A stretch of DNA of 20,661 nt from a virus (taxonomy: Duplodnaviria; Heunggongvirae; Uroviricota; Caudoviricetes), in the IMG/VR virus record IMGVR_UViG_2872152978_000006, positions 1 to 20,661 of that record; one strand, written 5' to 3'. The notes under the pieces were generated by a model. It was not told the DNA's origin. It searched no databases and worked only from the letters and a program-made list of their open reading frames with translations. This document shows positions 1,204-8,427 of the stretch, piece by piece. How positions within the stretch are numbered: position 1 is the stretch's first letter; each line of letters begins with the position of its first letter. Position numbers and translations under genes: made by a program.

Positions 1204-1345
1204 CTGTATGAATAGACCGTGTTAAGCAATGGTAGTAGACTTATGTAGACGAACAAAGAATAGGCTATGTCTAGGCTGATCCCCGAAAACCCGTACACCC
1301 CTACGGGCTGGCATAGCCGTCAGAATTAGGGGCGCGGGGTGGCGT

Positions 1346-2622: not shown

Positions 2623-2964
2623 TGAATAAGAAAAACCGCCCATTACAGGCGGCTAATTCAGATATTCGCGTATCTGATGTTACGCCCCTTACAAAATCCC
2701 TTCAAGCACCAAAGCGCACACCGAAAAAGCATCGTGCCAGAGTCTATATGCTGCGTACTGGTATAGAGGGATGGACAGAAAATGACATTCTTCGCTACTG
2801 CCGTCTGTCTTCTGGTCGTAACTATGCAACAGAGTTAGAACGCCAGCTTGGAATCACTCTGGAACGTATCGACGAAAAGAATCCTGATGGTATCGGAACA
2901 CACCTTCGCTACCGTTTCTCCTGCCGTGGTGATGTTCTGAAAGTGATCACTCATGGATTTGCCC

Positions 2965-3870
2965 CTATATTTCCAGACATCTGTTATCACTTAACCCATT
3001 ACAAGCCCGCTGCCGCAGATATTCCCGTGGCGAGCGATAACCCAGCGCACTATGCGGATGCCATTCGTTATAATGCTCGAACGCCTCTGCAAGGTTCTTT
3101 GCTGCCGTTAACCCGTCTGGTTTGGGCATGATACTGATGTAGTCACGCTTTATCGTTTTCACGAAGCTCTCTGCTATTCCGTTACTCTCCGGACTCCGCA
3201 CCGCCGTGTTCTTCGGTTCAAGTCCCAACATCCGGGCGAACTGGCGTGTTTCATTAGCCCGGTAGCATGAACCATTATCCGTCAGCCACTCCACTGGAGA
3301 CGACGGAAGATCGTTGCCGAAGCGGCGTTCCACCGCTCCCAGCATGACGTCCTGTACTGTTTCACTGTTGAAGCCGCCGGTAGTCACCGCCCAGTGCAGT
3401 GCCTCACGATCACAGCAGTCCAGCGCGAACGTGACACGCAGTCTCTCTCCGTTATCACAGCAGAACTCGAACCCGTCAGAGCACCATCGCTGATTGCTTT
3501 CTTTCACGGCCACTCTGCCTGTATGTGCCCGTTTCGATGGTGGTACAGCAGGTTTTCGCTCAAGCAACAGCGCATTCTGGCGCATGATCCGGTAAACACG
3601 TTTGGCATTGATCGCAGGCATACCATCAAGTTCTGCCTGTCTGCGAAGCAGCGCCCATACCCGACGATAACCATACGTGGGCAGCTCTCCGATAACATGG
3701 TGTATACGGAGAAGCACATCCGTATCATCAGTGTGACGACTGCGGCGGCCATCCATCCAGTCATCGGTTCGTCTGAGAATGACGTGCAACTGCGCACGCG
3801 ACACCCGGAGACAACGGCTGACTAAGCTTACTCCCCATCCCCGGGCAATAAGGGCGCGTGCGCTATCCAC
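2965..3870 (-). CDS. insD: IS2 transposase OrfB (InsD)
   Basis: 301-aa ORF recognised as IS2 InsD (DDE integrase core, HSDRGSQY-type region). Confidence 0.9.
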
Positions 3871-4193
3871 TTTTTTGCCCGTCCATATTCAACGGCTTCT
3901 TTGAGGAGTTCATTTTCCATCGTTTTCTTGCCGAGCAGGCGCTGGAGTTCTTTAATCTGCTTCATGGCGGCAGCAAGTTCAGAGGCAGGAACAACCTGTT
4001 CTCCGGCGGCCACAGCAGTAAGACTTCCTTCCTGGTATTGCTTACGCCAGAGAAATAACTGGCTGGCTGCTACACCATGTTGCCGGGCAACGAGGGAGAC
4101 CGTCATCCCCGGTTCAAAGCTCTGCTGAACAATTGCGATCTTTTCCTGTGTGGTACGCCGTCTGCGTTTCTCCGGCCCTAAGACATCAATCAT
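3828..4193 (-). CDS. insC: IS2 OrfA (InsC), HTH protein
   Basis: Start placed at the internal Met of the 136-aa ORF ([25 protein letters not shown]...), giving the 121-aa InsC; overlaps insD start as expected for a frameshift-fusion IS3-family element. Confidence 0.85.
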
Positions 4194-4401
4194 CTGTACT
4201 CCAATGACTAGTCTAAAAACTAGTATTAAGACTATCACTTATTTAAGTGATACTGGTTGTCTGGAGATTCAGGGGGCCAGTCTAACTCATATTAACCATC
4301 TTGCGAACATAAATGATCACAACGGACTTTCTCAGCAGGAAATTGCCGACATTCTGAAACTCTACCCGGACGCGTTTAACGCCGCTTAACGGAGACTGAA
4401 A

Positions 4402-5235
4402 ATGAACATCGAAAAAAGCAGATTAATTTCTGAGGCCGCCCCTCATCTGAACGCCTCTCTGAGCACAATTAACGGTAATGAATTTGCCGCAATTGTCCCG
4501 GTTATTCCTGGTCATATCGGTGGGCGTGAAACCAATATTGTTAGCGCAAAAGCGTTACACAAAGCGTTGGGCGTGGGAAAAGACTTCTCTACATGGATCA
4601 CTGATCGCATCTCTGAATATGACTTCACCATTGGGCACGATTACTCAGTCCATAAAACAATTTCCCCAAATTTGGGGAAAAGCCCGAATGGCGCGGCTTA
4701 CAGCAAGATTAAGCAGTCTGGCAGACCCGGCAAAGACTATCTGTTAAGTGTCGGAATGGCGAAAGAACTGGCAATGATCGAACGCAATGATCAGGGTCAC
4801 GCTATCCGCCGTTATTTCATCCAGTGCGAGGAAGAATTACAGCGTAGCGTGCCTGAAATCGCCGCACGCTATCGTCGCCAGCTAAAAGCCCGTATCAGTG
4901 CCGCAAACAACTTTAAGCCAATGTGCGATGCGCTGAATATGGCCCGTGCCGAGATGGGGAAAACGACGCAGCAACACCACTACACAAACGAGAGCAATAT
5001 GATTTCTCGTATCGTTCTTGGTGGGCTAACTGCTAAGCAGTGGGCGCGGATAAATGGCTATTCTGGCGAACCTCGCGACCATATGAACGCAGAACAGCTT
5101 GAGCACCTCTCATATCTCGAAAGCACCAATATCACGTTAATTGATATGGGCATGGAATATGAGCAGCGCAAAGGAGAACTCACCCGCCTGTCGCAACGCT
5201 GGCTCGCCAAGCGTCTGGAGGCGCTCAATGTCTAA
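4402..5235 (+). CDS. phage antirepressor-like protein (AntA/Bro-N-type N-terminal domain)
   Basis: 277-aa ORF; region SAKALHKALGVGKDFSTWITDRISEYDFTIGHDY and GMAKELAMIERNDQGHAIRRYFIQCEEEL resemble AntA/antirepressor domains. Family call from memory. Confidence 0.55.
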   Translation: MNIEKSRLISEAAPHLNASLSTINGNEFAAIVPVIPGHIGGRETNIVSAKALHKALGVGKDFSTWITDRISEYDFTIGHDYSVHKTISPNLGKSPNGAAYSKIKQSGRPGKDYLLSVGMAKELAMIERNDQGHAIRRYFIQCEEELQRSVPEIAARYRRQLKARISAANNFKPMCDALNMARAEMGKTTQQHHYTNESNMISRIVLGGLTAKQWARINGYSGEPRDHMNAEQLEHLSYLESTNITLIDMGMEYEQRKGELTRLSQRWLAKRLEALNV

Positions 5236-5407
5236 GCCAACAGGAACACCACAACCACAAAAACGCTACAAAGATGCCCACGGAGCACTCGTTACTGTCG
5301 AAAGCGTGTCTCACAACCGAGTGACGTTTTATCGCGACGGGTATCAATCGCCATGCGTACAACCGCTGGCGCGTTTCATGAAGGAGTTCGCGGAGGTTAA
5401 CCAATGA
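5228..5407 (+). CDS. small hypothetical protein (59 aa)
   Basis: ATG at 5228 overlaps the upstream stop (AATGTCTAA) and its stop overlaps the next start (ATGA): translational coupling. Confidence 0.4.
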   Translation: MSKPTGTPQPQKRYKDAHGALVTVESVSHNRVTFYRDGYQSPCVQPLARFMKEFAEVNQ

Positions 5408-6065
5408 TACCCGTCCAGAAGAAGACATTTTCACTGGCTGGCATGTCGCCAAAATCCAGAAATATGACGGCAAAGTCAGGCATTAATACAGCAGATACAA
5501 GCAAAGTTTATCATTTGCTGGTGGTCGGAACGGATGCCTTAACCATACCAGAAATCTCGGGCGATGATATTAGCATTGAGAAGGTCAGCGGCTGCGCCAG
5601 AAAATTTCTGGTCGTAGATGATGTCTTCAGCTCGTGTAGTGACTCCACAAAAACATTCGTCCACGCGCGTGACGTTAACGAAATGAGCGCGATGTACTGT
5701 GCTTCTGGTTCTTCCAATAGTGAGTTTTCGGAGTCCATAAAAAAGAGCTTGCCGTTATGCGGCAACACGGTTTATGGTTATAAGGCACCTCATAAAACGG
5801 GTGCCGGGATTGGCGTCCTGGTAAATCGAATGGCGACATATGACGCGCCGAGCGTCTTTTTTTATGTCGTAGGTCTGACTCACCCATTTTTTGGGCGTTG
5901 GTGTATAATCCAGCGCCTTTGTCAATCAATGGTGGCTCAGGCAGGGGCTTCTTCGGAAGCGCCGGTATCCATTCGAGCCGGTTACGCCAACCCTGTCTGG
6001 GCTACCACCAGCGAAATTGGCGTTTCCGGTGGTAGCGTTACATGCTATCGAATGGAGGCTGCCAC
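5404..6065 (+). CDS. hypothetical protein; 3' extent uncertain (the open frame continues to 6471 but overlaps better-supported small genes in other frames)
   Basis: Start is coupled to the upstream gene by ATGA overlap; 355 stop-free codons are unlikely by chance, but the protein has no recognisable features. Confidence 0.25.
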
Positions 6066-6260
6066 ATGCTGGCTACTACCCCTACCCAAAAACCGCAATT
6101 TATCTGGATTATCGCCGCAGTTCGCCGCGATTGCCCGACAATTACCGCCAAAATTCATCATATTGCTGCCGAGTCTGAACGCGATGCTCGCCGTTATCTG
6201 GTGCGCGATCACATCTGCTTTTTTGCTGGTCGTATCCGCATGGAGGTGGCACATGATTAA
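6066..6260 (+). CDS. Icd-like small protein (host cell division inhibitor family of P4-like elements)
   Basis: 64-aa ORF with GGAGG RBS 7 nt upstream; motif QFIWIIAAVRR...AAESERDARRYL...FAGRI resembles Icd-like proteins. From memory. Confidence 0.45.
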   Translation: MLATTPTQKPQFIWIIAAVRRDCPTITAKIHHIAAESERDARRYLVRDHICFFAGRIRMEVAHD

Positions 6261-6471
6261 AACCTACGATGTGCATATGGATCCCCTCGAACGCACAAGC
6301 CAGATCATCACACTGACAGAAGTGATTAACGACATTCTGGTGAGCAACTCTCCCTCACGAGACGAAAGACTGAAGGCGTTACTCGCGATATTGGATCTCG
6401 CCGTTCGTGACGTTCATTTCCTGCTGGAAGGTGGCGAAATGCCAGGAAAAACGGGGGCAACCAATGAATAA
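6253..6471 (+). CDS. small hypothetical protein (72 aa)
   Basis: ATG with GGAGG RBS; start overlaps the Icd-like stop; stop overlaps the next start. Confidence 0.4.
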   Translation: MIKTYDVHMDPLERTSQIITLTEVINDILVSNSPSRDERLKALLAILDLAVRDVHFLLEGGEMPGKTGATNE

Positions 6472-6658
6472 CTCAATTAATACCCCTCGCCTTACGTCCG
6501 CACTTCAATTAATCGAGCAAGCAGCGGCTGTCCTGGTTGCTGTCAGTCTTTCGGCTGAAGAAATGGACGCTACTGATGTCGTGGATGCGATTAAAGCGTG
6601 CTCATCTTTGGTTAACGATGCCCGTGCCGAGCTGGTAATTCTTGGGGGTGAAAAATGA
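6464..6658 (+). CDS. small hypothetical protein (64 aa)
   Basis: ATG at 6464 inside the longer track ORF 6407-6658; overlapping start/stop with neighbours. Confidence 0.4.
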   Translation: MNNSINTPRLTSALQLIEQAAAVLVAVSLSAEEMDATDVVDAIKACSSLVNDARAELVILGGEK

Positions 6659-6918
6659 ATATCAACTTAATTTATCGTCATCCGTGTGAGCTGGAAATTG
6701 AATCATTGCTGGGGCGTGAAGAGCCATATCCAGACACATTCACTCCCGCAGATTGCGCGACTGAACGGCTTACCAGAGCGCGCACAGGTCTGGTTCATGT
6801 GATGAATGAGATTGTTCCCTCGGTGGGAGGGGAACAGGCGACAGTAATCAATAGCTGGCTACAAAAAGTTACCTCCCTGATAGATATCGGTTTAATCGAT
6901 GTGGAGAGTGCGAAATGA
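6655..6918 (+). CDS. small hypothetical protein (87 aa)
   Basis: ATGA overlap with upstream gene; part of the coupled small-gene chain. Confidence 0.45.
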   Translation: MNINLIYRHPCELEIESLLGREEPYPDTFTPADCATERLTRARTGLVHVMNEIVPSVGGEQATVINSWLQKVTSLIDIGLIDVESAK

Positions 6919-7070
6919 CCAACATCCAGCTCATTGAAGCGCAATGTCGCATCGAACAGGTTCAGACTGTTTTAGGGTTCTGGCTTGAAGGGGCCAGCCC
7001 CAGCAACAGAGACAAGTTAATGATTGGCGCGGTTATGTCACTGCTCAATGGCGTACCAGAAGCTATTTAG
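6915..7070 (+). CDS. small hypothetical protein (51 aa)
   Basis: ATGA overlap with upstream stop; below the ORF-track length cutoff; translated by eye as MTNIQLIEAQCRIEQVQTVLGFWLEGASPSNRDKLMIGAVMSLLNGVPEAI. Confidence 0.35.
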   Translation: MTNIQLIEAQCRIEQVQTVLGFWLEGASPSNRDKLMIGAVMSLLNGVPEAI

Positions 7071-7108
7071 GAAGCGGACGAATTGTTGGGCAAATATGAG
7101 TTACAGAA

Positions 7109-8427
<1,319 letters not shown>

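What the first reader, a model, noticed from the sequence alone, without database searches (positions are those of the whole stretch)
5228..7070. Chain of translationally coupled small ORFs with a reading-frame conflict around an Icd-like gene
Six or seven ORFs are linked by overlapping stop/start codons (AATG/ATGA at 5228, 5404, 6253, 6464, 6655, 6915), typical of the early region of P4-like satellites. A 355-codon stop-free frame (5404-6471) overlaps the Icd-like ORF (6066-6260, good RBS) and two further RBS-supported small genes in another frame; both readings cannot be fully right. A perfect TATAAT at 5904-5909 inside the long frame, with no good -35, may mark an internal promoter or P4-style immunity-RNA region ahead of the Icd-like gene.
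Basis: partly seen in the sequence, partly recalled or inferred. Interest (0 to 1): 0.5.

Follow-up and report, generated by a model that had tools for sequence, protein, structure and literature searches.

The report
P4-type RNA immunity switch with read-through ORF
The "frame conflict" is a phage-P4-style genetic switch in which a small antisense RNA and its targets lie inside a long reading frame that seems to be kept open only so that ribosomes can pass through; the kind of system is known, and here it occurs in a variant layout.

Summary

The region is a homologue of the phage P4 immunity region. It holds a conserved promoter (5749-5778), an isrK/seqA-type leader RNA with terminator (5785-5862), a C4/CI-type antisense RNA (5925-6012) and an Icd/Kil-like gene (6066-6260). 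The ribosome-binding site of that gene is covered by a sequence complementary to the C4 loop. Loop and targets co-vary across 24 loci.

The long frame corresponds to P4 eta. In 24 of 24 related loci, one frame stays open across both RNAs. It starts on the stop codon of an upstream gene and ends on the start of the next gene. Its substitutions show no protein-like pattern.

So both readings are probably right, not mutually exclusive.

The new element is the layout. In P4, eta is in frame with kil. Here it crosses the icd-like gene in the +1 frame and nests the next gene (6253-6471). That +1 frame is stop-free in 9/9 loci of this class against 1/12 of the P4 class.

The frame's N-terminal part also contains a fragment of a P22-like small-terminase gene that includes the pac-site region.

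The parts
4402..5235 (+). AntA/AntB antirepressor-family gene, an upstream member of the coupled chain
   Evidence: Pfam AntA 77 bits. Its stop is overlapped by ATG 5228.
5228..5407 (+). DUF4222 gene. Its TGA stop (5405-5407) overlaps the ATG of the long ORF.
   Evidence: Pfam DUF4222 87 bits. Variable sites by codon position are 1/4/8. Protein homologues at 56-74% identity sit upstream of the long ORF in most other genera, with one weaker match in L027 at 39%.
5404..6471 (+). Eta-like pass-through ORF of 355 codons, annotated in RefSeq as 'ash family protein'. It spans the promoter, isrK, C4, the icd-like gene (in the +1 frame) and orf72 (in frame).
   Evidence: The frame is open in 8 of 9 E. 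coli variants and in all 24 loci. It is coupled to a gene at both ends in nearly all of the 24 loci listed. Pfam Phage_ASH matches aa 124-232 = nt 5773-6099.
5552..5658 (-). Fragment of a P22-like small-terminase gene (gene 3, about nt 268-374). The counterpart of the P22 pac site is at 5637-5658.
   Evidence: Identity is 86-91% to terS of P22, IME10 and related phages. Homology ends at the pac-site boundary. The site matches 15/22 positions of P22 pac and 15/17 positions of the P22 pseudo-pac consensus (PMC10996546).
5749..5778 (+). Conserved sigma-70-like promoter (-35 TTGCCG at 5749-5754, -10 TATGGT at 5773-5778). The predicted +1 at 5785 is the first base of the isrK model. It is the counterpart of P4 PLE and Salmonella PisrK.
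   Evidence: Both hexamers are conserved in most of the 23 loci, and P4 has TTGCCT-N18-TATAGT at the same place. The stretch 5728-5777 has one variable site among the E. coli variants. The consensus scan did not report it.
5785..5862 (+). isrK / P4 seqA-type leader RNA with an intrinsic terminator (stem 5842-5856 plus a T-run). The seqA target TCGAATGG is at 5826-5833.
   Evidence: Rfam RF01394, 67.1 bits against a gathering score of 50. Terminator scan. seqA complementarity and co-variation.
5893..5919 (+). Hairpin whose loop is the TATAAT (5904-5909), inside an optional 62-nt spacer module (5863-5924).
   Evidence: RNAalifold on 11 loci gives 5 pairs with compensatory changes. The module is absent from loci with 21-25-nt spacers and from L004/L008.
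5925..6012 (+). C4 / P4 CI-type antisense immunity RNA. The specificity loop (seqB) TCCATTCGA is at 5968-5976.
   Evidence: Rfam RF01695, 79.5 bits against a gathering score of 45. The structure is 98.8% paired over 21 sequences, 17 of 27 pairs show double compensatory changes, and 0/500 shuffles reach this.
6028..6036 (+). GGTGGTAGC, complementary to the 3' strand of the C4 basal helix (6001-6009). This is a conserved alternative pairing.
   Evidence: A perfect 6-9-nt complement sits at the same place in all 20 loci checked, and it co-varies (ACCACC / ATCGCC / ACCGCC / ATCACC).
6048..6057 (+). seqC target TCGAATGGA (6048-6056), overlapping the Shine-Dalgarno GGAGG (6053-6057) of the icd-like gene.
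   Evidence: Perfect 8-11-nt complementarity to the C4 loop in 24/24 loci, always abutting the SD. About 16 different loop sequences change together with seqC.
6066..6260 (+). Icd-like / Kil-like gene (64 aa), read in the frame one base behind the long ORF.
   Evidence: NCBIfam phage_ICD_like 70.3 bits. It is 40% identical to P4 Kil. Variable sites by codon position are 44/39/62 and GC1/2/3 is 0.61/0.47/0.47.
6253..6471 (+). orf72, a real small gene. Its ATG overlaps the icd stop. It is in frame with, and so nested in, the long ORF.
   Evidence: Protein homologues at 39-45% identity lie directly after icd in Pluralibacter, Leclercia and Symbiopectobacterium loci. Variable sites are 2/2/6. GC1/2/3 is 0.58/0.35/0.54.
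6464..6658 (+). orf64. Its start overlaps the stop of the long ORF and orf72.
6655..6918 (+). orf87, ATGA-coupled.
   Evidence: Homologues at 44-54% identity occur in other genera.
6915..7070 (+). orf73, truncated here by a nonsense mutation at 7068. The full gene runs 6915-7136 and overlaps the next ATG at 7129.

Best explanation
The region is a P4-type RNA immunity and anti-termination module in a thrW-type integrative island of E. coli/Shigella.

Silent state (inferred from P4, P1 and Gifsy-1):
- A constitutive promoter at 5749-5778 starts transcription at 5785.
- Most transcripts stop at the isrK terminator (5842-5862).
- Read-through transcripts are processed into a stable C4/CI-like RNA (5925-6012).
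- Its loop (seqB, 5968-5976) pairs with seqA (5826-5833) and with seqC (6048-6056).
- seqC overlaps the ribosome-binding site of the icd/kil-like gene, so that gene is not translated.
- Transcription of the untranslated RNA then terminates, and the coupled downstream genes stay off. These are orf72, orf64, orf87, orf73 and, in intact islands, the primase.

Activated state (inferred):
- Transcripts that start further upstream are translated through the chain of overlapping genes.
- At ATGA 5404, ribosomes pass from the DUF4222 gene into the 355-codon ORF.
- They read straight through the internal promoter, the isrK terminator, the C4 RNA and seqC.
- This prevents terminator and RNA folding, antisense pairing and Rho loading.
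- They finish at 6471, on top of the next start at 6464.

The long ORF is therefore real as a translated track, the counterpart of P4 eta. Its amino-acid sequence is largely irrelevant.

Shown here: the RNAs, the target co-variation, and the conserved openness and coupling of the frame.
Inferred: transcription starts, RNA processing, Rho dependence, and the effect of translation.

Difference from P4: the track crosses icd/kil in the +1 frame and nests orf72 instead.
For: RNA families: Rfam C4 and isrK score above their gathering thresholds in the window, in P4, in four E. coli variants and in the 18 loci from other genera; only L027 lacks an isrK hit. C4 structure co-variation is strong.

Targets: seqA, seqB and seqC change in step in 4 E. 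coli immunity types. seqB and seqC are perfectly complementary and abut the icd Shine-Dalgarno in 24/24 loci.

P4 homology: P4 eta (L003 2240-2839) is ATGA-coupled to the alpA-like ORF88. It contains the isrK and C4 hits and ends with Kil, which is Icd-like. The P4 mechanism is summarised in PMC10111431. The Gifsy-1 paper notes that IsrK is a structural homologue of P4 seqA and that read-through RNA is processed (PMC4825925).

The long frame is maintained:
- It is open over isrK and C4 in all 24 loci, which were retrieved through icd and not through the ORF. The other two frames have much shorter open stretches.
- Its start overlaps the stop of an upstream ORF in nearly all of the 24 loci listed, and its stop overlaps the next gene's start in all but two, one of them P4, where annotation gives the overlap.
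- The segments between its start and isrK fall into at least 10 clusters unrelated by blastn. All are open in the right frame, with shuffle probabilities of 0.0005, 0.012 and <0.0005 for the longer ones.
- Two deletions in L004/L008 (1 + 38 nt) sum to 39 nt and keep the frame.
- The +1 frame through icd is stop-free in 9/9 loci of the window class and 1/12 of the nested class. Fisher p = 3e-5 on all loci and 0.005 on my grouping into about 13 lineages.

The product does not look selected:
- Variable sites are 71/65/70 by codon position in 5785-6063 and 24/14/26 in 5404-5784.
- GC by codon position is atypical.
- N-termini are non-homologous in full-length relatives.
- AlphaFold2 mean pLDDT is 32.8.
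Against: No expression data are available, so translation of the long frame in this island family is inferred.

The key P4 paper (Forti et al. 1999) could not be read directly. Its content comes from a secondary summary and from my own recollection.

The loci share ancestry, so the counts are not independent.

Conserved RNA sequence could by itself keep part of the 5785-6063 stretch free of stops.

No upstream regulated promoter (PLL equivalent) was identified.

In this particular window the upstream chain is cut by IS2 and the downstream replication genes are lost. The switch here is probably a relic whatever its mechanism.

The AlphaFold result rests on only 10 sequences.
Confidence: 0.7

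Rival explanations
1. The 355-codon frame is an untranslated artefact. The real features are only the two RNAs, the icd-like gene and orf72. The frame is open because structured, G+C-rich RNA sequence and the antisense of a terminase fragment happen to lack stops.
For: Substitutions show no codon periodicity. Composition is atypical. AlphaFold confidence is low. Pfam Phage_ASH coincides exactly with two Rfam RNAs. RefSeq itself often replaces the ORF with an 'ash' pseudogene plus the Icd-like gene.
Against: One frame is open in 24/24 loci across at least 10 unrelated upstream segments. Coupling at both ends is near-universal. Paired deletions preserve the frame. The +1 frame through icd is open only where the long frame uses it. 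P4 eta is a precedent.
Confidence: 0.15
2. The long ORF encodes a functional 'Ash'/Bro-network regulatory protein whose sequence matters, and the RNA genes merely overlap it.
For: A Pfam family exists. Full-length ORFs occur down to 48% identity. Mageeney et al. class P4 eta with Bro-network genes.
Against: Conservation within the Ash segment follows RNA base-pairing and not codon positions. N-terminal parts are unrelated mosaics, one of them antisense to a terminase fragment. The part over icd is conserved only because icd is. No confident fold is predicted.
Confidence: 0.1
3. The out-of-frame layout is a recent frameshift (a 1-nt loss between C4 and icd) in a formerly nested eta/kil gene, and so a decaying pseudogene.
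For: The two classes differ by exactly one base in the distance from the C4 end to the icd ATG: 54 or 51 nt against 55, 53 or 52 nt. The window's island is otherwise decayed.
Against: The class occurs in Escherichia, Klebsiella, Pluralibacter, Leclercia and Symbiopectobacterium. Its icd proteins are only 62-95% identical, yet the +1 frame is stop-free in every case. It runs in frame into the following gene, of the orf72 family in win/L011, L020, L021 and L025, in most of these loci, though in L023 it stops just past icd.
Confidence: 0.05

Closest known systems
Phage P4 immunity region of the left operon (PLE - seqA - cI/seqB - seqC - kil nested in eta - epsilon ... alpha)
   Same: The order of elements is the same and they are homologous. 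They are the promoter, the isrK/seqA leader, the C4/CI RNA, seqC on the ribosome-binding site of an Icd/Kil-like gene, a long ORF ATGA-coupled to the upstream gene and ending on the next gene's start, and (in intact islands) a downstream primase.
   Different: The long ORF is out of frame with icd/kil (+1) and nests orf72 instead. It is 355 codons against 199 in P4. It has a 127-codon N-terminal part that carries a P22-like terS/pac fragment. It is coupled to a DUF4222 gene and not directly to the alpA-like gene. The loop specificity differs (TCCATTCGA against TCCTGTGAA). No sid, psu or delta genes are annotated in intact relatives.
Phage P1/P7 immI operon (c4 antisense RNA - icd - ant)
   Same: A C4-family RNA lies directly upstream of an icd-type gene, with loop-target complementarity at the icd ribosome-binding site. 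Downstream genes are translationally coupled. Heteroimmunity arises by co-variation of loop and targets. The P1/P7 side of this comparison is my own knowledge of Citron & Schuster 1990; the tested side is.
   Different: The antirepressor-family gene here lies upstream of the RNA module, not downstream. The long pass-through ORF is a P4 feature that, to my knowledge, has not been described for P1.
Salmonella Gifsy-1 isrK - orf45 - anrP locus
   Same: It has an IsrK-type leader sRNA with a leaky terminator. Read-through RNA is processed into a small stable RNA (STnc1160). Expression of the downstream gene depends on translational coupling (PMC4825925; Rfam isrK hit).
   Different: There IsrK acts as an activator in trans and the output is an antirepressor/antiterminator cascade. 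No long spanning ORF is described.
'Bro zones' of Gram-negative PICIs and helper-embedded PICIs that carry C4 and isrK hits (Mageeney et al. 2023, PMC10111431)
   Same: Those authors already note that C4 and isrK detect CI and seqA relatives inside Bro-network/eta-like genes of enterobacterial satellites.
   Different: They do not report the two frame classes, the selection for openness, or the terS/pac fragment. The island here is a thrW element with a P4-alpha-like primase and P22-type ejection-protein genes.

Membership tests
C4 antisense RNA (Rfam RF01695; includes P4 CI and P1/P7 C4) | Covariance-model score above the gathering threshold | tested here: met
   79.5 bits against 45, full-length model match at 5925-6012.
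C4 antisense RNA (Rfam RF01695; includes P4 CI and P1/P7 C4) | Basal helix plus two hairpins, supported by compensatory changes | tested here: met
   98.8% of cells paired. 17 of 27 pairs have changes on both sides. 0/500 shuffles reach this, and slid controls give 33-52% paired.
C4 antisense RNA (Rfam RF01695; includes P4 CI and P1/P7 C4) | Loop complementary to targets upstream and at the ribosome-binding site of the downstream gene | tested here: met
   seqB 5968-5976 pairs with 5826-5833 and with 6048-6056. seqB/seqC pairing holds in 24/24 loci.
C4 antisense RNA (Rfam RF01695; includes P4 CI and P1/P7 C4) | Stable RNA processed from a longer transcript (RNase P / PNPase) that represses in trans | not testable with these tools
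   Needs Northern blots or RNA-seq and genetics.
isrK / P4 seqA leader RNA (Rfam RF01394) | Model score above the gathering threshold, with a 3' intrinsic terminator and a promoter placed to start at model position 1 | tested here: met
   67.1 bits against 50. Terminator at 5842-5862. Conserved -35/-10 placing +1 at 5785. The transcription start itself was not measured.
Icd-like / P4 Kil (NCBIfam NF033153) | HMM score above the cut-off and a protein-like substitution pattern | tested here: met
   70.3 bits against 25. P4 Kil scores 76.1 bits on the same model. 40% identity to Kil. Codon-position variability 44/39/62.
Icd-like / P4 Kil (NCBIfam NF033153) | Inhibits cell division or kills the cell when expressed | not testable with these tools
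   Experimental.
P4 eta-type pass-through ORF | Start codon overlapping the stop of the upstream gene, and stop overlapping the next gene's start | tested here: met
   ATGA at 5404 and ATGAATAA at 6464-6471. The same holds in nearly all of the 24 loci listed.
P4 eta-type pass-through ORF | Contains the internal constitutive promoter, seqA, the CI/C4 gene and seqC | tested here: met
   Phage_ASH covers isrK and C4 both in P4 Eta and in the window ORF.
P4 eta-type pass-through ORF | In frame with kil (kil nested in eta) | tested here: not met
   The long frame is the icd +1 frame. The gap from the C4 end to the ATG is 54 nt here against 55 nt in P4. orf72 is the nested gene.
P4 eta-type pass-through ORF | Its translation prevents Rho-dependent termination of transcripts from an upstream promoter | not testable with these tools
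   Only indirect support: selection for openness.
Pfam Phage_ASH (PF10554), treated as a protein family | HMM match | tested here: met
   105 bits, aa 124-232.
Pfam Phage_ASH (PF10554), treated as a protein family | Conservation due to selection on the protein | tested here: not met
   Variable sites are 71/65/70 by codon position. Conservation follows RNA pairing.
P4-like satellite in the strict sense (int, alpA, alpha primase, plus sid/psu/delta capsid-hijack genes) | Presence of sid, psu and delta homologues | tested here: not met
   None is annotated in the intact relative. L031 has int, an HTH, AntA/B, the immunity module, a TOPRIM/DUF927 primase and then P22-type ejection proteins. This was checked by annotation only.

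The most novel reading that the evidence does not exclude
The pass-through ORF is a sequence-free 'translation track', so it can take up cargo DNA. In this island family it has captured the pac-site region of a P22-like small-terminase gene (5552-5658). Intact relatives also carry P22-type ejection-protein genes and use the thrW attachment site. Together this would make the island an unrecognised satellite of P22-like podoviruses, one that is packaged through a stolen pac site and is governed by a P4-type RNA immunity switch. The out-of-frame eta/icd layout would then be an adaptation that lets induced transcripts avoid making an Eta-Kil fusion.
Probability: 0.25. Interest if true: 0.7.

Novelty: new variant of a known kind. 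Interest (0 to 1): 0.45.

Why it matters
Three points.

1. It generalises a mechanism shown experimentally only in P4: a reading frame kept open for the act of translation, which overrides RNA-mediated termination. Here it is seen in many enterobacterial islands. There is a clean comparative signature and two alternative frame layouts that can be compared experimentally.

2. It explains a systematic annotation problem. RefSeq calls the same stretch either a 355-aa 'ash family protein' or an Icd-like gene plus an 'ash' pseudogene. The Pfam Ash family is in effect a protein model of two RNA genes.

3. The terS/pac fragment inside the frame points to a possible satellite-helper relationship with P22-like phages. 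That can be tested directly by transduction assays.

Tried and rejected
- The consensus promoter scan found neither the isrK-proximal promoter nor the TATAAT. The promoter call rests on cross-locus conservation instead.
- Codon-position counts for the small ORFs among the E. coli variants had too few variable sites to decide anything: 3-10 per gene. I used cross-genus protein homology instead.
- I tested whether other N-terminal segments of eta-like ORFs also carry phage packaging sequences. L014 and the alternative E. coli type L030 gave no phage match, and E. coli hits were only to the island itself. Pac capture is therefore not general.
- The primary P4 paper (PMC94026) is not held. One search failed on term length.
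- Literature searches for 'ash family protein'/PF10554, and for a thrW/P22 satellite, found nothing relevant.
- AlphaFold2 of the 355-aa product gave no confident fold. I treat this as weak evidence because the alignment had only 10 sequences. No fold search was run on such a model.
- Synonymous-codon resampling of icd gave only moderate per-locus probabilities (0.03-0.68) for an open +1 frame in the window class. The class contrast is the stronger argument.
- I considered and rejected the minus-strand ORFs 5511-5768 and 5675-5929 as genes. They have no family hits. The first is the remnant of the terS reading frame.


Full report
**1. The observation.**
The window between 5228 and 7070 contains a run of plus-strand ORFs whose stops and starts overlap:
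- ATGTCTAA at 5228
- ATGA at 5404
- ATGATTAA at 6253
- ATGAATAA at 6464
- ATGA at 6655
- ATGA at 6915

The frame that opens at 5404 has no stop until 6469-6471 (355 codons). The other five frames of that stretch have 13-19 stops. TATAAT is at 5904-5909.

Two details in the finding need correcting.
- Only the icd-like gene (6066-6260) lies in a different frame. The 6253-6471 gene is in the same frame as the long ORF.
- The last ORF is truncated by a C->T nonsense change at 7068. In relatives it is 73 codons long and overlaps yet another start at 7129.

The island is damaged in this window. IS2 sits at 2956-4284 inside an upstream gene, and similarity to intact islands ends at 7179.

**2. What public annotation says.**
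The stretch occurs in about 480 complete E. coli genomes at 85-100% identity. RefSeq is split.
- Most genomes call 5404-6471 a 355-aa 'ash family protein'.
- Others call an 'ash' pseudogene plus a 64-aa 'host cell division inhibitor Icd-like protein', and sometimes the 72-aa gene as well.

**3. The RNA module.**
Rfam finds an isrK RNA at 5785-5862 (67.1 bits) and a C4 antisense RNA at 5925-6012 (79.5 bits). The Pfam Phage_ASH match of the long ORF covers aa 124-232, which is nt 5773-6099. That is exactly these two RNAs and the spacer between them.

The stretch also matches phage P4 at the ORF that old records call 'ash' or 'cI gene product'. That ORF is where the CI immunity RNA lies.

The C4 fold is strongly supported across 21 sequences. 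98.8% of cells are paired, 17 of 27 pairs carry compensatory double changes, and 0/500 shuffles reach this.

The loop of the second hairpin (TCCATTCGA, 5968-5976) is perfectly complementary to two sites:
- TCGAATGG inside isrK (5826-5833)
- TCGAATGGA at 6048-6056, which overlaps the GGAGG Shine-Dalgarno of the icd-like gene (ATG at 6066)

P4 has the same geometry with a different sequence (TCCTGTGAA / TTCACAGG / TTCACAGGA).

Among the E. coli variants, the stretch 5778-6078 is hypervariable and falls into four immunity types. In each type the loop and both targets change together.

In 24 loci from ten genera, the loop and seqC are perfectly complementary over 8-11 nt. seqC always abuts the Shine-Dalgarno, and there are about 16 different loop sequences.

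This is the classic signature of a P4 CI / P1 C4 immunity system.

**4. Promoters.**
A -35/-10 pair (TTGCCG-N18-TATGGT) is conserved in most loci. It places +1 at the first base of the isrK model. P4 has TTGCCT-N18-TATAGT at the same place. This fits the Salmonella work, where IsrK starts at its own promoter and a fraction reads through its terminator (PMC4825925).

The TATAAT at 5904-5909 lies in a 62-nt spacer module that only about half of the loci have. In E. coli variants L004/L008 a 38-nt deletion removes it. Where the module is present, TATAAT is the loop of a hairpin with compensatory changes. A weak second promoter cannot be excluded, but it is not a conserved part of the system.

**5. 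The long frame.**
In P4, the ORF at L003 2240-2839 (199 aa) has these properties:
- It starts with an ATGA on the stop of the alpA-like ORF88.
- It contains the isrK and C4 hits.
- It ends with a 65-aa Icd-like segment, which is Kil.
- It stops on top of the epsilon start.

This ORF is eta. According to Forti et al. 1999, as summarised by Mageeney et al. (PMC10111431), eta is translated only from the upstream late promoter. Its translation prevents termination, so transcription reads through into the replication genes. Kil is the nested short form.

I tested whether the window's long frame behaves the same way. The loci were retrieved through the icd protein, so they were not selected for having the ORF.
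- In all 24 loci one frame is open across isrK and C4 (189-656 codons). The other two frames have much shorter open stretches.
- In nearly all of the 24 loci listed, its start overlaps the stop of an upstream ORF. Its stop overlaps the next gene's ATG in all but two of them, one being P4, where the annotation shows the overlap with epsilon.
- The segments between that start and isrK fall into at least 10 clusters unrelated by blastn, 25-283 codons long. All are open in the right frame. The shuffle probability is 0.0005 for the window type, 0.012 for the L012 type and <0.0005 for L027.
- In L004/L008, a 1-nt and a 38-nt deletion add up to 39 nt and keep the frame.

The product does not look selected.
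- Variable sites are spread 71/65/70 over codon positions in 5785-6063 and 24/14/26 in 5404-5784.
- GC by codon position is atypical, unlike icd and orf72.
- Full-length relatives down to 48% identity share only the RNA/promoter segment, the part overlapping icd and the nested C-terminal gene. Their N-termini are unrelated.
- AlphaFold2 gives a mean pLDDT of 33, though from a shallow alignment.

My conclusion is that the frame is maintained for being translated, not for what it encodes.

**6. The variant layout.**
The loci fall into two classes that differ by one base between the C4 end and the icd ATG.
- With 55 nt (or 53/52 nt), the long frame is the icd frame. This is the nested layout found in P4.
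- With 54 nt (or 51 nt), as in the window, it is the icd +1 frame. In most such loci it runs on past the icd stop into the next gene, whose ATG overlaps that stop; in L023 it ends just after the icd stop.

The +1 frame through icd is free of stops in 9/9 loci of the window class and in only 1/12 of the nested class. Fisher p = 3e-5. After collapsing to about 13 lineages by my own grouping, p = 0.005.

Within the overlap, the icd frame carries the protein-like signal: variability 44/39/62 and GC1>GC2.

orf72 (6253-6471) is a real gene. It has homologues at 39-45% identity directly after icd in other loci of this class.

So the window holds a genuine out-of-frame gene overlap (eta-like over icd-like) plus a nested pair (eta-like and orf72). 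I found no description of this layout.

**7. Mechanism.**
The best-supported model is the P4 model. Constitutive transcription from 5749-5778 yields the isrK-type leader and, by read-through and processing, the C4-like RNA. The RNA masks seqA and seqC and blocks icd translation. Transcription of the coupled downstream genes then terminates.

Transcripts from further upstream carry ribosomes from the DUF4222 gene into the long frame. The ribosomes pass through the terminator hairpin, the C4 sequence and seqC, and override the block.

- Shown here: the RNAs, the target co-variation, the promoter conservation, and the openness and coupling of the frame.
- Inferred from P4, P1 and Gifsy-1: transcription starts, RNA processing, Rho dependence and the antitermination effect.

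I put 0.7 on this model. The rivals get 0.15 (the frame is an artefact), 0.10 (a sequence-specific Ash protein) and 0.05 (a recent frameshift pseudogene).

**8. An unexpected insert.**
Nucleotides 5552-5658 are, on the minus strand, 86-91% identical to nt ~268-374 of the small-terminase gene of P22-like phages. RefSeq annotates the same stretch in strain NCTC9040 as a DNA-packaging pseudogene fragment.

The similarity ends exactly at the annotated P22 pac site. The window's counterpart (5637-5658) matches 15/22 positions of pac and 15/17 positions of the published pseudo-pac consensus. One island variant (L004) matches 16/17.

Intact relatives carry full-length P22-type ejection-protein genes after the primase, and they sit at thrW. 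To my knowledge thrW is also the P22 attachment site.

This suggests a satellite relationship with P22-like phages, but it is unproven. Two other N-terminal types showed no phage match.

**9. Verdict.**

The system is a known kind (the P4 CI/eta/kil and P1 c4/icd immunity systems, already noticed in PICIs). It appears here in a new layout, with comparative evidence for a translation-only ORF. Interest is moderate at 0.45. It would be higher if the pac lead holds.

Noticed in passing
window 5552-5658 (minus strand); pac-like site at 5637-5658: A fragment of a P22-like small-terminase gene that ends exactly at the P22 pac site, embedded in the N-terminal part of the long ORF. It is conserved in all E. 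coli variants of the island. It may be a captured helper packaging site.
   Followed up: partly
L031 9589-13338 (E. coli M10, an intact relative of the island): After the TOPRIM/DUF927 primase, the island carries full-length homologues of P22-type ejection proteins (PHROG 917 'released from the phage upon host infection'; PHROG 770 'DNA transfer protein'). The island sits at thrW, next to proA. No sid/psu/delta genes are annotated.
   Followed up: partly
window 6001-6009 with 6028-6036: The 3' strand of the C4 basal helix has a perfect 9-nt complement 19 nt downstream. The pairing is present and co-varies in all 20 loci checked, P4 included. It excludes the C4 fold, so it may be a precursor or anti-C4 structure.
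   Followed up: partly
window 5863-5924: An optional 62-nt spacer module between isrK and C4, present in about half of the loci. It contains a T-run and a co-varying hairpin with a TATAAT loop. Other loci have only 21-25 nt here, and P4 has 107 nt.
   Followed up: partly
window 5749-5765 (minus strand): A terminator-like hairpin with a T-run on the minus strand. It coincides with the -35 region of the isrK-proximal promoter (TTGCCG...CGGCAA inverted repeat). Its role is unknown.
   Followed up: no
window 2956-4284, 7068 and 7179: Decay of this copy of the island. IS2 is inserted in the 143-aa gene upstream of AntA. A nonsense mutation truncates orf73. An IS-associated break at 7179 removes the rest, including the primase.
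   Followed up: yes
window 1264-1331: An Rfam int-alpA RNA hit (46.7 bits) just after the integrase gene.
   Followed up: no
L004 2712-2975, L009 2752-2976; proteins P0105/P0106: Odd database names. The orf87 homologue is called 'nicotinic acetylcholine receptor subunit beta'. Some long 'ash' ORFs in Klebsiella are called 'HAD family hydrolase'. In nested-class E. coli islands the whole long ORF is named 'Icd-like protein'.
   Followed up: no
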